A stretch of 31,415 bases of DNA from Pirellulaceae bacterium (GCA_016784735.1 JADHUC010000115.1:1-31415), one strand, 5' to 3'; shown: positions 2,038 through 4,349, counted from the first letter of the stretch. The notes: generated from the sequence alone by a model not told the origin. Made by a program: numbers and translations.

Positions 2038-3069
2038 GTGGCCGGGAATCATCTGGACGACCATCAGTTGCTTGACCTCGCGATGGGACAAGCGAGCCCC
2101 GACGAGGCGAACTCTGGACGGGACCACTGCTACGCGTGCCCGCAATGCCAGGAGCGACTGGAATCTTTACGTCCTTTGGCCGACGGGCTGGTTCGGCTTA
2201 GCGAGGTAGAGGAGGTTCCCACGCCCTCCGCGGAACTTCGGCAACAGCTCTTCGGGCGGGCCGAACCGTTGCTGGACGAGTTCAGCCACAACCACGGCTC
2301 GTCAGCGGACAGACGACCGGTGCCGGCCGAGCTAGTTGCCCCGGAGCGGCGTTGGGCGGTGGCCGCTTCGGCCGGCTTGCTCCAAGAGTTGAGCCCGAAA
2401 CCGAGCCGGGTGAGCGGCAAACCGCGGAGATCACTCAGGCGAAGTTGGGCGGTGGCCGCTTCGCTTGTTCTGCTGGTGGGTGCCGCCAGCGGGGGTTGGC
2501 TCGTCTGGTCGAATATGGTGCCTTCGGCCGCAGCGGCCATCCTGGAAACGACCGGTTCCGTGAAGATCACACCGCCGGGCCAGCCTTCTCGATGCTGTCG
2601 GCGCGAAAAGGAGCTACTGCGGGTTGGGGACGTGCTCAGTACCCCTGAGGCCGATGGCGCCATCCGCCTGGATGACGAGACGCGGCTTTCGCTGCGGCAG
2701 GGCTGTCGTCTGGAGGCTCAACGACCGGTGGCCGAACGGCAAGCCGCCTTTGAGTTGCAGGCGGGCAGCCTGTGTGTAGATACCACTCAGGCCAAGCGTG
2801 GATGCTGTGTCAAGACGCCCGGCGGCACCGTGCGGTGCGGGAAAGCCAAAATACTCATTCACGTTACTTCGCCGCAGGAGTCTACTGTGGCAGCGTTGGA
2901 TGGGGAGGTGAAAGTCCAGTGCGGTGGCCGTGTGGGAGTGGTCTCCACCGGCGTCTGTGCAGAGTTGAAGCGTTCTAAACCATGTTGTTACCGGCCGGCC
3001 CGCCCGAAAGAGACTCGGTGCGATTGGGTCGACCGGTGCGGAAAACCAGAAGATGGGAGGAAAAACTGA
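2038..3069 (+). CDS. anti-sigma factor: N-terminal zinc-finger (zf-HC2-like), one TM helix, C-terminal FecR-like domain
   Basis: GTG start at 2038. N-terminal H-x3-C-x2-C motif (HCYACPQCQERL). TM segment WAVAASLVLLVGAASGGWLVW. C-terminal GSVKITPPG...LRVGDVLSTPEADGAIRLDDETRLSLRQGCRLE is FecR-like. Position directly after the ECF sigma gene. Confidence 0.8.
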   Translation: MAGNHLDDHQLLDLAMGQASPDEANSGRDHCYACPQCQERLESLRPLADGLVRLSEVEEVPTPSAELRQQLFGRAEPLLDEFSHNHGSSADRRPVPAELVAPERRWAVAASAGLLQELSPKPSRVSGKPRRSLRRSWAVAASLVLLVGAASGGWLVWSNMVPSAAAAILETTGSVKITPPGQPSRCCRREKELLRVGDVLSTPEADGAIRLDDETRLSLRQGCRLEAQRPVAERQAAFELQAGSLCVDTTQAKRGCCVKTPGGTVRCGKAKILIHVTSPQESTVAALDGEVKVQCGGRVGVVSTGVCAELKRSKPCCYRPARPKETRCDWVDRCGKPEDGRKN

Positions 3070-3227
3070 TGAGAGGTAAATCGGGGTTTGTCTGTGCCGC
3101 GTTCGGTGCGGCTTTAGCGTGGTCACTTGCGGGCCAAACGGTTCCCAGTGCCGCTGGCAACAAGCGGACCGGCGAAGATCCACAGCTTGCACAACTCTAT
3201 GTGCAGTTGCTCGGCACATCGTCGTGA
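3069..3227 (+). CDS. 52-codon ORF: Sec-type signal peptide plus first strand of an HMA-like domain; probably the true 5' part of the downstream peroxidase gene (same frame, separated only by TGA 3225-3227)
   Basis: ATG 3069 overlaps the anti-sigma stop (cTGATGa). MRGKSGFVCAAFGAALAWSLAGQ is a classical n-h-c signal peptide. The ORF ends ...AQLYVQLLGTSS* in the same frame as ORF 3249-4349. Confidence 0.55.
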   Translation: MRGKSGFVCAAFGAALAWSLAGQTVPSAAGNKRTGEDPQLAQLYVQLLGTSS

Positions 3228-3248
3228 GCGTGCATCACCGAGAATGAT

Positions 3249-4349
3249 GTGCGGTCCGCACTCAAAGGTATTGACGGGGTTCAGTCGGTCGAACTGTCGG
3301 CCTATGCAGACATTTACACCGTTACTTTTCGTCCCGGCGTGACGCCCGACGAGAACAAGGTGCAGGAGCTATTCAAGGGGTGCGCGTACAACGGGCGCCG
3401 AGTGGTTGTCGAGCGAGATCGCAAGTCGGTGGTAGATTTCGCCGTGGCCCAGCCACGGCCAGCGGCCCCCGAGGACAATCCCTCGACGGCTGGTCGAGTC
3501 GCGTTGGGCAAGCGACTGTTCACCGACAAGCGTCTATCCTCGGACGGAACGATGGCTTGTTCCACGTGTCACAGTCCTCAGCGGGCTTTCGCCAGCACCT
3601 CGACCACAGCCAAAGGCGTTCGAGGCCTCGAGATCCCGCGCAATGTGCCGACACTGGTAAACGTGGGATATCGGCGTTCCATATTCTGGGACGGGCGCAA
3701 GAAGTCGCTGGAAGAGATGTCGCTGGGCGCCGTCGAACACCCGGCTATCATCGGCATGACTTCCGATGAGCTGAACGAACGGTTGCGGTCCATACGCGAG
3801 TACGTCGACCTTTTCAAGGAGGAATTCAGCAAGCCTCCCACGGCCCAGACGTTCGCTTTGGCCTTGGCTGCATACCAGCGTAGTCTCGTCAGGCACGACA
3901 CGCCCTTCGATCGCTTTGCGCGAGGCAACGAGAGCGCGATCAGCGAATCGGCTCGCCGCGGTTACATCAATTTCCGCGACAAGGCGAATTGCATTACCTG
4001 CCACAGCGGTCCCGACTTCGCCGATGGTGCGTTCCGATTCATCGGAGTTGGCTGGGACGGCAAAGCCTACAAGGATCCCGGCCGGGCAAAGGTCTCGGGC
4101 CATCCTGGGGAAGCGGGCAGGTTCCGAGTTGCACCGCTGCGCGAGTTGGTCTGGACGGCCCCGTACATGCATGACGGCAGTCTGAAGACCCTGGAAGAGG
4201 TCGTGGACTTCTACAATAAGAACGGCCCCGAAGGCAAACGGACCGACCTGCACGGACCGCTGAACCTGACCGACCAGGAAAAGAAGGACTTGGTGGAATT
4301 CCTCAAGTCCCTCAGTTCCGAGCGATGGACCGTCGCAATGCGCGAGTAG
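3249..4349 (+). CDS. di-haem cytochrome c peroxidase (CCP/MauG family) with N-terminal HMA-like domain
   Basis: Two CXXCH haem motifs (CSTCH, CITCH). Family motifs LGKRLFTDKRLS, IFWDGR, APYMHDGSLKTLEEVVDFY. The N-terminal ~65 aa (VRSALKGIDGVQSVELSAYADIYTVTFRPG...) resemble the alpha1-beta2-beta3 part of an HMA domain. The listed start at 3249 is only a GTG, there is no in-frame ATG before the first haem motif, and the ORF has no signal peptide of its own. See feature 3069-3227. Confidence 0.9.
   Translation: MRSALKGIDGVQSVELSAYADIYTVTFRPGVTPDENKVQELFKGCAYNGRRVVVERDRKSVVDFAVAQPRPAAPEDNPSTAGRVALGKRLFTDKRLSSDGTMACSTCHSPQRAFASTSTTAKGVRGLEIPRNVPTLVNVGYRRSIFWDGRKKSLEEMSLGAVEHPAIIGMTSDELNERLRSIREYVDLFKEEFSKPPTAQTFALALAAYQRSLVRHDTPFDRFARGNESAISESARRGYINFRDKANCITCHSGPDFADGAFRFIGVGWDGKAYKDPGRAKVSGHPGEAGRFRVAPLRELVWTAPYMHDGSLKTLEEVVDFYNKNGPEGKRTDLHGPLNLTDQEKKDLVEFLKSLSSERWTVAMRE

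What the first reader, a model, noticed from the sequence alone, without database searches (positions are those of the whole stretch)
3069..3261. In-frame TGA inside the metal-binding loop of an HMA-like domain that joins a signal peptide to a di-haem peroxidase: candidate selenocysteine site (or fresh pseudogene)
What the sequence shows:
- ORF 3069-3227 encodes a clear Sec-type signal peptide (MRGKSGFVCAAFGAALAWSLAGQ...). Its start is coupled to the anti-sigma stop as TGATG.
- The peroxidase ORF 3249-4349 is in the same frame, separated only by TGA 3225-3227.
- The peroxidase ORF has no in-frame ATG before its first CXXCH and no export signal of its own. Covalent haem attachment requires export, so the two ORFs almost certainly form one gene.

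Read through, the junction is ...AQLYVQLLGTSS-[TGA]-ACITENDVRSALKGIDGVQSVELSAYADIYTVTFRPG...ELFKGCAYNGRRVVV. This fits the beta-alpha-beta-beta-alpha-beta pattern of HMA/MerP/CopZ domains (V.GM.C..C...V..AL....GV..V.V). The TGA falls in the loop that normally carries GMxCxxC, which would give a U-A-C pair.

Stem-loops follow at once:
- 3229-3253: cgugcauca/ugaugugcg, 9 bp including 2 G.U pairs, loop ccgagaa.
- Or the overlapping 3249-3261: gugcg-guc-cgcac.

Bacterial SECIS elements are hairpins directly 3' of the UGA with a G-containing apical loop. A Sec/Cys pair in a MerP-like loop would be an exceptionally strong Hg(II) ligand, and this gene lies ~140 nt upstream of hgcAB. The alternative is a nonsense mutation of a Cys codon (TGC/TGT to TGA) or a sequencing error.
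Basis: partly seen in the sequence, partly recalled or inferred. Interest (0 to 1): 0.8.

Follow-up and report, generated by a model that had tools for sequence, protein, structure and literature searches.

The report
New exported selenoprotein beside hgcAB
The in-frame TGA is almost certainly a real selenocysteine codon in a previously undescribed exported planctomycete protein (a metal-binding-like domain fused to a two-haem peroxidase) that sits just upstream of the mercury-methylation genes hgcAB.

Summary
TGA 3225-3227 joins a signal-peptide ORF (3069-3227) in frame to a di-haem peroxidase ORF (3249-4349), 138 nt upstream of hgcA.

It is not a fresh pseudogene. I collected 15 distinct homologues (44-100% identity in the N-terminal domain) from Pirellulaceae and Planctomycetaceae MAGs and metagenomes. 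All keep TGA at this column, and no Cys form was found. dN/dS is well below 1 on both sides of the TGA.

It shows a G-C / G-U / A-U compensatory series and frozen synonymous sites (CGG 15/15). Its invariant GGUC matches the apical loop of the E. coli fdhF SECIS.

In one orthologous locus (L010), a selD gene that itself carries a Sec-UGA lies directly after hgcB. selA, selB and tRNA-Sec could not be searched.

The N-domain resembles HMA only below family thresholds. Its motif is U-x-C or U-C, with a third invariant Cys (FKGC). No NCBIfam model claims the protein, and a 2026 table of more than 110 selenoprotein families lists nothing like it.

Verdict: a new selenoprotein family. Its biochemical role, including any link to mercury handling, is inferred and not shown.

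The parts
3069..4349 (+). Complete read-through coding sequence (426 codons including UGA-Sec at codon 53; stop TAG 4347-4349) of the exported HMA-like(Sec)/di-haem peroxidase fusion
   Evidence: The same architecture (a short ORF, then a 19-22 nt gap, then the called CCP ORF) is seen in all homologues.
3069..3137 (+). Signal peptide (MRGKSGFVCAAFGAALAWSLAGQ...). The cleavage site is approximate.
   Evidence: Read from the sequence. Every homologue has a hydrophobic N-terminal signal in the same frame. L001-type contigs carry an unrelated signal-peptide sequence joined to an identical mature protein.
3186..3425 (+). HMA-like (beta-alpha-beta-beta-alpha-beta) N-terminal domain that spans the UGA. 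Strand beta1 (LYVQLLG) lies upstream of the UGA and the rest downstream.
   Evidence: Pfam HMA below threshold: E 3.7e-4, 21.3 bits, 6 of 10 members hit. Family profile against the PDB chain of Cu-ATPase HMA4 (8q73): E 3e-4. AF2 of the post-UGA fragment gives alpha-beta-beta-alpha-beta order at low pLDDT. hhalign gives only 20% probability.
3225..3227 (+). UGA read as selenocysteine (residue 53)
   Evidence: Invariant in 15 of 15 distinct homologues; no Cys form found.
3231..3233 (+). Cys55 (TGC), invariant partner of Sec53 (U-x-C; U-C in the L012/L089/L090/L093 clade)
   Evidence: TGC 15/15. It aligns with the second Cys of the CxxC of the HMA4 domain.
3249..3261 (+). SECIS-like hairpin GUGCG-GUC-CGCAC. 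The invariant GGUC starts 25 nt after the UGA.
   Evidence: RNAalifold and pair counts: pairs are invariant except pair 3, which is G-C (12), G-U (L093) or A-U (L011, L012). The closing pair is G-C, G-U or open. Codon CGG is 15/15 and GCA 12/12. The motif occurs once in the window, with 0.02 expected. The fdhF apical loop is also GGUC.
3381..3383 (+). Cys105 of the invariant FKGC motif in the alpha2-beta4 loop; a candidate third ligand or resolving Cys
   Evidence: Invariant column in alignment A3. Its role is inferred.
3495..4346 (+). Di-haem cytochrome c peroxidase (CCP/MauG/MbnH superfamily) domain with CSTCH 3558-3572 and CITCH 3990-4004
   Evidence: PF03150 163 bits. Best solved relative is 6e1c (di-haem enzyme, which I recall to be MbnH) at E 2e-44, then bacterial CCPs at E 1e-41. 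NCBIfam MauG and MbnH scores are below their cut-offs.
4488..5636 (+). hgcA (Cys-form N-terminus MSDLREDCGCCNQ)
   Evidence: NF040863, 457 bits against a cut-off of 275. It lies directly downstream of the Sec gene in the window, L001-L006, L009 and L010.
5671..5982 (+). hgcB
   Evidence: NF040864, 109.8 bits against a cut-off of 99.
2038..3069 (+). FecR-type anti-sigma factor whose stop overlaps the start of the Sec gene (this strain and L007 only)
   Evidence: PF04773 E 1e-7. Present in L007 at 86% identity and absent from L001-type contigs.

Best explanation
Positions 3069-4349 are one gene for an exported selenoprotein.

How it is made:
- UGA 3225-3227 is decoded as selenocysteine. This step is inferred from comparative evidence.
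- SelB carrying Sec-tRNA(Sec) is recruited by the small hairpin 3249-3261 (GUGCG-GUC-CGCAC), whose apical GGUC lies 25 nt after the UGA.
- The 426-residue precursor is exported through its N-terminal signal peptide. Two haems are then attached at CSTCH and CITCH. Both steps follow from established c-type cytochrome biology.

The mature protein has three parts:
- An about 80-residue HMA-like ferredoxin-fold domain. Its beta1-alpha1 loop carries Sec53-x-Cys55, and its alpha2-beta4 loop carries an invariant Cys105.
- A Pro-rich linker.
- A bacterial CCP/MbnH-like di-haem peroxidase.

The family is confined, as far as sampled, to Planctomycetota and is always in the Sec form. In one Pirellulaceae subclade, which includes this window, it forms a conserved three-gene block with hgcA and hgcB.

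The most likely role (inference only) is that the Sec/Cys/Cys site is a very soft-metal-avid or redox-active centre that works with the tethered peroxidase. It could act as a periplasmic Hg(II)/soft-metal-binding module. Alternatively, it could be a selenol/thiol redox partner or substrate of the di-haem domain, by analogy with the MbnH-MbnP pair.
For: Conserved UGA:
- It is kept in the window and in L001-L003, L006-L012 and L087-L093.
- An exhaustive HMMER search of 1.84 billion representatives found 7 relatives. All were called from the GTG just after the stop, and none was a Cys-containing full-length form.
- Two paralogues with the UGA occur in one MAG (L008 and L012).

Selection on both flanks:
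- Window against L009: dN 0 and dS 0.60 upstream; dN 0.03 and dS 0.45 downstream.
- Window against L011: 0.32/1.25 upstream and 0.47/1.55 downstream.
- L001-type contigs have a completely different upstream gene and signal peptide but the same frame and the same UGA.

Hairpin:
- There is a compensatory G-C / G-U / A-U series.
- Synonymous sites are frozen. The mean third-position entropy of the five hairpin codons (8-12) averages about 0.44 by my calculation, whereas most other conserved four- to six-fold degenerate codons in that table are above 1.
- The GGUC loop is identical to the fdhF SECIS apex read from NC_000913.3.

Sec trait in the lineage:
- The orthologous locus L010 has selD (TIGR00476, 366 bits) with its own in-frame UGA directly after hgcB.
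- A second Sec-type selD comes from an ERZ247946xx sample, the accession series that also holds the window-type contigs.
- Full Sec machinery has been reported in a Rhodopirellula genome and other planctomycetes (PMC4807772).

Ordinary stops: TGA is a normal stop elsewhere, for example at the anti-sigma stop 3067-3069 and at the stops of the L011 and L012 genes.

Domains.

hgcAB linkage: it is kept across different upstream and downstream contexts.
Against: - selA, selB and tRNA-Sec were not found in any DNA held here. ARAGORN found none, and whole genomes could not be searched.
- No Cys homologue exists, which removes the usual Sec/Cys criterion.
- The hairpin is short (5-7 bp), lacks the bulged U of fdhF, and sits 7 nt further from the UGA.
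- No Rfam family matches.
- The HMA homology is below threshold: Pfam 21.3 bits against 24.8, hhalign 20% probability, AF2 fragment pLDDT 56, and no significant Foldseek hit.
- Paralogues L011, L012, L087, L092 and L093 are not next to hgcAB, so the mercury link is clade-specific.
- A structured REP-like spacer separates the gene from hgcA, so co-transcription is not established.
Confidence: 0.86

Rival explanations
1. Fresh pseudogene or sequencing/assembly error: a Cys (or other) codon mutated to TGA in this strain, so the peroxidase is no longer made.
For: - Gene callers split the gene everywhere.
- One relative (L007) does carry a separate 31-nt frameshifting deletion further downstream. 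This shows that copies can decay.
Against: - TGA is invariant in 15 distinct sequences from independent assemblies and samples, down to 44% domain identity.
- dS is near saturation and dN/dS is about 0.1-0.3 on both sides.
- No member has a sense codon at the column.
Confidence: 0.02
2. Programmed stop-codon read-through or another recoding event without selenocysteine. A near-cognate Trp, Cys or Arg would be inserted at UGA, stimulated by the downstream hairpin, so the conserved UGA would serve as a translational regulator.
For: - Conservation of the UGA and of a 3' structure is also what a read-through signal would show.
- selA, selB and tRNA-Sec were not demonstrated.
- There is no Cys homologue to indicate the chemistry required at the site.
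Against: - The UGA sits one or two residues from an invariant Cys in a loop that aligns with a CxxC metal/redox motif. This is the typical setting of bacterial Sec.
- The hairpin apex GGUC equals the SelB-binding apex of fdhF.
- A Sec-type selD lies in the orthologous locus.
- Sec decoding is documented in the family Pirellulaceae (PMC4807772).
Confidence: 0.07
3. Two separate products: a small secreted 52-residue peptide, and a cytoplasmic or otherwise exported protein started at GTG 3249 by termination-reinitiation.
For: A GTG lies 22 nt after the stop (19 nt in the U-C clade) in all members. It is what annotation pipelines call.
Against: - The GTG is the Val codon that forms the first base pairs of the conserved hairpin, and there is no Shine-Dalgarno sequence in front of it.
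- A product starting there has no signal peptide, although it has two CxxCH sites that need periplasmic haem attachment.
- The ferredoxin-like domain would lose strand beta1 and its Sec/Cys loop. Yet the 15 codons before the UGA are under purifying selection as part of that domain.
- Related CCPs without the N-domain carry their own signal peptide.
Confidence: 0.03

Closest known systems
Bacterial Sec-UGA/SECIS recoding, as in E. coli fdhF
   Same: An in-frame UGA is followed within about 20-30 nt by a hairpin with the apical sequence GGUC. The fdhF element was read here from NC_000913.3. That the loop G and U are the SelB contacts is from my own knowledge of the fdhF SECIS literature.
   Different: - GGUC starts 25 nt after the UGA (22 nt in the U-C clade), against 18 nt in fdhF.
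- The stem is only 5-7 bp.
- There is no bulged U.
- The lower stem is not conserved.
- No Rfam model matches.
[quoted passage not shown]
   Same: Sec lies in the beta1-alpha1 loop of a small ferredoxin-like metal-binding domain. Both families are listed in the 2026 review table (PMC13188914). NF041115 is the best NCBIfam hit of the N-domain.
   Different: - The score is 21 bits against a cut-off of 95, so this protein is not a member.
- The motif is U-x-C or U-C, plus a distal invariant Cys.
- The domain is exported and fused to a di-haem peroxidase.
- No Cys form is known.
MbnH / bacterial di-haem cytochrome c peroxidases / MauG (PF03150)
   Same: There are two CxxCH sites and a PF03150 match of 163 bits. 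The best solved relative is 6e1c (which I recall to be MbnH) at E 2e-44, and bacterial CCPs follow at E 1e-41. By my own knowledge and PMC11951088, MbnH acts on a partner metal-binding protein, MbnP.
   Different: - The scores are below the NCBIfam cut-offs for MbnH (205 against 363) and MauG (214 against 444).
- Here the putative partner domain is fused to the N-terminus and contains Sec.
- Other CCP homologues retrieved have a signal peptide but no such domain.
Selenoprotein forms of HgcA (PCUGP) and HgcB described by Haft & Gwadz 2022 (bioRxiv 10.1101/2022.07.06.499078)
   Same: Selenocysteine is associated with the mercury-methylation locus, with Sec next to Cys in a presumed Hg-contacting motif.
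   Different: Here HgcA has the all-Cys N-terminus (DCGCCNQ), and the Sec lies in a different, exported protein encoded upstream. That paper does not mention a peroxidase or an HMA protein.
MerP (periplasmic Hg(II)-binding HMA protein)
   Same: It is an exported small beta-alpha-beta-beta-alpha-beta domain with a chalcogen pair in the first loop. There is a weak TIGR02052 hit (E 0.02).
   Different: The score is 15 bits against a cut-off of 92.55. There is no mer operon, the motif is U-x-C rather than CxxC, and the domain is fused to a haem enzyme.

Membership tests
Bacterial selenoprotein gene (Sec-UGA) | In-frame UGA conserved among orthologues, with coding conservation on both sides | tested here: met
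   TGA in 15 of 15 distinct members; dN/dS well below 1 upstream and downstream.
Bacterial selenoprotein gene (Sec-UGA) | SECIS hairpin a short distance 3' of the UGA, with G (GU) in the apical loop | tested here: met
   Hairpin 3249-3261 has one compensatory pair, frozen synonymous sites and a GGUC apex as in fdhF. It has no Rfam counterpart.
Bacterial selenoprotein gene (Sec-UGA) | Homologues with Cys at the Sec column | tested here: not met
   None was found among 5.8 billion clustered proteins, 1.84 billion representatives, GTDB genomes or JGI metagenomes. This is common for rare families but removes one standard line of support.
Bacterial selenoprotein gene (Sec-UGA) | selD, selA, selB and tRNA-Sec present in the same genome | tested here: inconclusive
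   A Sec-type selD lies next to hgcB in the orthologous locus L010, and another comes from the same sample series. No tRNA-Sec, selA or selB is present in the DNA held. Whole genomes are not searchable with these tools.
Bacterial selenoprotein gene (Sec-UGA) | Selenium demonstrated in the protein | not testable with these tools
   Needs 75Se labelling or mass spectrometry.
HMA domain (PF00403) | Score at or above the Pfam gathering threshold | tested here: not met
   21.3 bits against 24.8 for the isolated domain. Six of 10 members hit at E < 1, best 6.1e-5.
HMA domain (PF00403) | beta-alpha-beta-beta-alpha-beta fold | tested here: inconclusive
   AF2 of the post-UGA fragment gives alpha-beta-beta-alpha-beta(-beta) order, but with mean pLDDT 56 and no Foldseek hit at E <= 0.001.
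HMA domain (PF00403) | GMxCxxC metal-binding motif in the beta1-alpha1 loop | tested here: not met
   The motif is G-x-S-x-U-x-C or G-T-K-A-U-C. Only the second Cys aligns.
Di-haem cytochrome c peroxidase superfamily (PF03150 CCP_MauG) | Pfam score above threshold and two CxxCH haem sites | tested here: met
   163 bits against 25.6; CSTCH and CITCH present; PDB relatives at E 2e-44 to 1e-31.
MbnH (TIGR04039) / MauG (TIGR03791) | NCBIfam equivalog cut-off | tested here: not met
   205 against 363, and 214 against 444.
NF041115 UxxU metal-binding (seleno)protein | NCBIfam cut-off and UxxU motif | tested here: not met
   21 bits against 95; the motif is U-x-C.
HgcAB mercury-methylation pair (neighbouring genes) | NCBIfam equivalog cut-offs for HgcA and HgcB | tested here: met
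   HgcA 457 against 275; HgcB 109.8 against 99.

The most novel reading that the evidence does not exclude
The Sec-HMA-like/di-haem peroxidase is a third, periplasmic component of the mercury-methylation system of marine Pirellulaceae. A selenol/thiol site would capture Hg(II) (or MeHg) outside the cytoplasmic membrane. The tethered peroxidase would keep that site or the metal in the right redox state, for example by oxidising Hg(0) or a selenide/thiolate adduct. The Sec protein-hgcA-hgcB block would then be a functional unit that travels together.
Probability: 0.15. Interest if true: 0.85.

Novelty: new member of a known kind. Interest (0 to 1): 0.68.

Why it matters
- It would add a selenoprotein family that current annotation splits into a 49-58-residue hypothetical ORF and an N-terminally truncated 'cytochrome c peroxidase'. 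It would also add the first di-haem CCP-type enzyme with a Sec-containing domain to a list of more than 110 prokaryotic selenoprotein families that has no such entry (PMC13188914).
- It extends the recently noticed association between selenocysteine and mercury methylation (Haft & Gwadz 2022) to an exported neighbour of hgcAB. The lineage is marine, low-oxygen Pirellulaceae. A survey of its hgcAB neighbourhoods reported no other recognisable genes associated with Hg methylation (PMC12953829).
- It gives a concrete, testable candidate for periplasmic Hg handling.
- It shows that selD can sit next to hgcAB.
- The practical consequence is that the gene should be re-annotated as one Sec-containing CDS.

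Tried and rejected
- **Rfam:** the whole window at gathering thresholds and 3150-3350 at E <= 10 gave nothing relevant.
- **ARAGORN:** the window and 13 planctomycete loci contain no tRNA-Sec.
- **Single-sequence folding:** the region is no more stable than shuffles (z = -0.10). Stability was therefore dropped as an argument.
rejected as a SECIS because L011, L012 and related sequences do not keep it.
- **AF2 of the post-UGA fragment:** low confidence (pLDDT 56), and Foldseek against the PDB gave no significant match.
- 20% probability.
- **Heuristic scan for other 'ORF-TGA-ORF plus hairpin' candidates in about 200 kb of planctomycete loci:** mostly noise in this GC-rich DNA, but it did uncover the Sec-type selD in L010. 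The other candidates translated to low-complexity, non-protein-like sequence and were dropped.
- **Conserved neighbours among paralogue loci:** none found apart from hgcAB in one clade.
- **Genome-wide TGA reassignment:** rejected, because TGA terminates the anti-sigma gene and the L011 and L012 homologues.
- **Literature searches for a selenoprotein CCP or an hgcA-linked peroxidase:** nothing relevant.
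Full report
**1. The observation**

The window has ATG 3069, an in-frame TGA at 3225-3227 and TAG at 4347-4349. The stop of the FecR-type anti-sigma ORF (2038-3069) overlaps the ATG as TGATG.

The first 52 codons encode a signal peptide followed by ...PQLAQLYVQLLGTSS. The remainder is a CCP_MauG di-haem peroxidase (PF03150, 163 bits) with CSTCH and CITCH.

hgcA (NF040863, 457 bits) starts 138 nt after the stop, and hgcB follows. However, the region as a whole folds no better than shuffled sequence (z = -0.10).

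**2. The TGA is conserved, not fresh**

- *Same population, different contexts.* The identical HgcA is found on 15 metagenome contigs. Some of them (L001-L003) have an entirely different upstream gene and an unrelated signal-peptide sequence. They keep the same frame and the same TGA, and they differ in the codon before it, Ser to Pro.
- *GTDB genomes.* A scan returned three Pirellulaceae MAG orthologues (85-89% identity) and two distant relatives (56-57%). One distant relative, L012, is a paralogue in the same MAG as L008. All have TGA at the same column: GTSS*ACITEND, GVSG*LCINELG and GTKA*CFSESR.
- *Exhaustive protein search.* An HMMER search of 1.84 billion representative proteins with the post-TGA domain found seven relatives. 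All had been called from the GTG just after the stop, and none was a full-length Cys form.
- *DNA of those relatives.* For four of them, the DNA shows the same signal peptide, beta1 strand, TGA and domain layout.
- *JGI metagenomes.* A scan added three more members, again all with TGA.
- *More distant CCPs.* Homologues at 46% identity or less have a signal peptide directly in front of the CCP domain and no N-terminal domain.

**3. Selection**

Across 15 distinct sequences, TGA and the following TGC (Cys55) are invariant. Nei-Gojobori estimates show purifying selection on the 15 codons before the TGA and on the 75 codons after it:

| Pair | Upstream dN/dS | Downstream dN/dS |
|---|---|---|
| Window vs L009 | 0 / 0.60 | 0.03 / 0.45 |
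| Window vs L011 | 0.32 / 1.25 | 0.47 / 1.55 |

A nonsense mutation, a sequencing error or two unrelated ORFs cannot account for this pattern.

**4. The recoding signal**

Only the second hairpin (3249-3261, GUGCG-GUC-CGCAC) is conserved.

- RNAalifold recovers it. Four pairs never vary.
- The third pair is G-C in 12 sequences, G-U in L093 and A-U in L011 and L012.
- The closing pair is G-C or G-U, or it is open to give a GGUCG loop.
- The five codons that form it (Val-Arg-Ser-Ala/Val-Leu) are nearly frozen at synonymous sites. CGG is 15/15, whereas another invariant Arg uses CGT, CGC and CGG. GCA is 12/12.
- The motif occurs once in the window, with 0.02 expected.
- The invariant GGUC is also the apical sequence of the E. 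coli fdhF SECIS, which I read from NC_000913.3. It starts 25 nt after the UGA here and 18 nt after it in fdhF.

**5. Is selenocysteine decoding available?**

A heuristic scan for other ORF-TGA-ORF junctions found selD in L010 (6394-7431, minus strand). L010 is the orthologous Pirellulaceae locus, and the gene lies directly after hgcB. It scores 366 bits against TIGR00476 (cut-off 125). It carries its own in-frame TGA at the catalytic position (EASG-U-AAKLGP), followed by a hairpin.

A selD that is itself a selenoprotein implies a working Sec system. Many close SelD relatives in the protein collection are similarly N-truncated. One comes from an ERZ247946xx sample, the accession series that also holds the window-type contigs, and it shows the same UGA.

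Complete Sec machinery has been reported in a Rhodopirellula genome and other planctomycetes (PMC4807772). I could not search whole genomes for selA, selB or tRNA-Sec, and none lies in the DNA held.

**6. What the protein is**

*N-terminal domain.* It gives sub-threshold HMA matches:
- Pfam 21.3 bits against 24.8, with 6 of 10 members hitting.
- A family profile against the PDB hits only the HMA domains of a Cu-ATPase, at E 3e-4.
- The best NCBIfam hit is the UxxU metal-binding selenoprotein NF041115, at 21 bits against a cut-off of 95.
- hhalign gives 20% probability.

In the HMMER alignment the family's Gly aligns with the G of GMxCxxC. Cys55 aligns with the second Cys, and Sec lies one residue after the first Cys position. 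AF2 of the post-UGA fragment gives alpha-beta-beta-alpha-beta order but with pLDDT 56. I therefore call the domain HMA-like, not a member of the HMA family.

A third Cys (FKGC, Cys105) is invariant. By my own knowledge of the HMA fold, the alpha2-beta4 loop packs against the metal loop, so Cys105 could lie near Sec53 and Cys55. This was not measurable here.

*C-terminal domain.* It is about equally close to 6e1c (a di-haem enzyme, which I recall to be MbnH) and to classical bacterial CCPs. It scores below the NCBIfam cut-offs for MbnH and MauG.

**7. Context**

The Sec gene-hgcA-hgcB order is kept in the window, L001-L006, L009 and L010, while the flanks differ:
- Upstream is the sigma/anti-sigma pair here and in L007, and an AP endonuclease-like gene in L001.
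- Downstream is a TRAP transporter here, and selD in L010.

The paralogues L011, L012, L087, L092 and L093 are elsewhere in their genomes.

The spacer before hgcA contains a pair of REP-like palindromes that also occur at 137-216. HgcA here has the Cys-packed N-terminus DCGCCNQ rather than the PCUGP Sec motif that Haft & Gwadz reported for most HgcA proteins.

**8. Mechanism and novelty**

*Shown:* a conserved UGA with a conserved, covarying hairpin inside a domain under selection; an export signal; two haem sites; and linkage to hgcAB in one clade.

*Inferred:* SelB-dependent Sec insertion, and a Sec/Cys/Cys soft-metal or redox site working with the tethered peroxidase.

Sec in HMA-type loops is known from the E1-E2 ATPase family (UxxC) and from NF041115 (UxxU) (PMC13188914). 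Several things appear undescribed: the fusion to a di-haem peroxidase, the U-x-C or U-C spacing, the obligate Sec state, the planctomycete distribution and the hgcAB linkage. No NCBIfam model reaches its cut-off for the protein, the 2026 review table does not list it, and literature searches found nothing.

I rate it a new member of a known kind (bacterial selenoproteins), with moderate to high interest because of the mercury-methylation neighbourhood.

Noticed in passing
L010:6394-7431 (-), UGA at 7383; also L095:2529-3566 (+): selD (TIGR00476, 366 bits) is itself encoded with an in-frame UGA (EASG-U-AAKLGP). It sits directly after hgcB in an orthologous Pirellulaceae locus. A hairpin UAGGUC-CGGGU-GACCUA starts 10 nt after the UGA. 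A second such selD comes from the same sample series as the window contigs.
   Followed up: yes
window 137-216 and 4357-4435: A REP-like palindrome, GGTCCCGnCTGCCGGACGGGACC, occurs as two inverted pairs (4 copies, 0 expected). One pair fills the spacer between the Sec gene and hgcA. The same pair is in the L010 spacer, and a different palindrome is in L009. A further hairpin, GGGCACGTTTCCAACGTGCCC, lies just before the hgcA ribosome-binding site.
   Followed up: partly
window 4488-4530: The HgcA N-terminus is MSDLREDCGCCNQ. This is the 'Cys-packed' non-selenoprotein counterpart of the PCUGP Sec motif reported for most HgcA proteins. In this locus the Sec is therefore in the neighbouring gene, not in HgcA.
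   Followed up: partly
window 2038-3069 (anti-sigma) and 1237-2016 (ECF sigma): The FecR-type anti-sigma factor has three Cys-Cys dipeptides in its C-terminal part (SRCCRRE, RGCCVKT, KPCCYRP). Its stop overlaps the start of the Sec gene. This suggests ECF-sigma control with a Cys-rich sensor in this strain and in L007.
   Followed up: no
window ~3160-3185 versus L001:8670-8700: Contigs with 100% identical mature Sec protein, hgcAB and dctP carry a completely different upstream gene set and a different signal peptide. The similarity breakpoint falls at the start of the mature protein, which suggests recent recombination or mobility of the block.
   Followed up: partly
L007:1560-1580 (corresponds to window ~3455-3485): This relative (JGI 3300007510) keeps the Sec-UGA and the hairpin but has a 31-nt deletion between short direct repeats in the Pro-rich linker. 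The deletion frameshifts the peroxidase domain. It is either a decaying copy or an assembly error.
   Followed up: no
window 285-1157; L087:85-897: An FGE-sulfatase-type gene (weak EgtB and SenA selenoneine-synthase hits, far below their cut-offs) lies upstream of the locus. Another FGE-sulfatase gene, plus a cytochrome c'-like gene, precede the family member in L087.
   Followed up: no
L012:9180 and L093:1536: A conserved 10-bp hairpin (ACCGGCCGCA-GUGCCA-UGUGGCCGGU) lies 31 nt after a TGA, about 0.9 kb upstream of the paralogous Sec gene. The flanking translation looks non-protein-like, so it is probably an unrelated structured element.
   Followed up: partly
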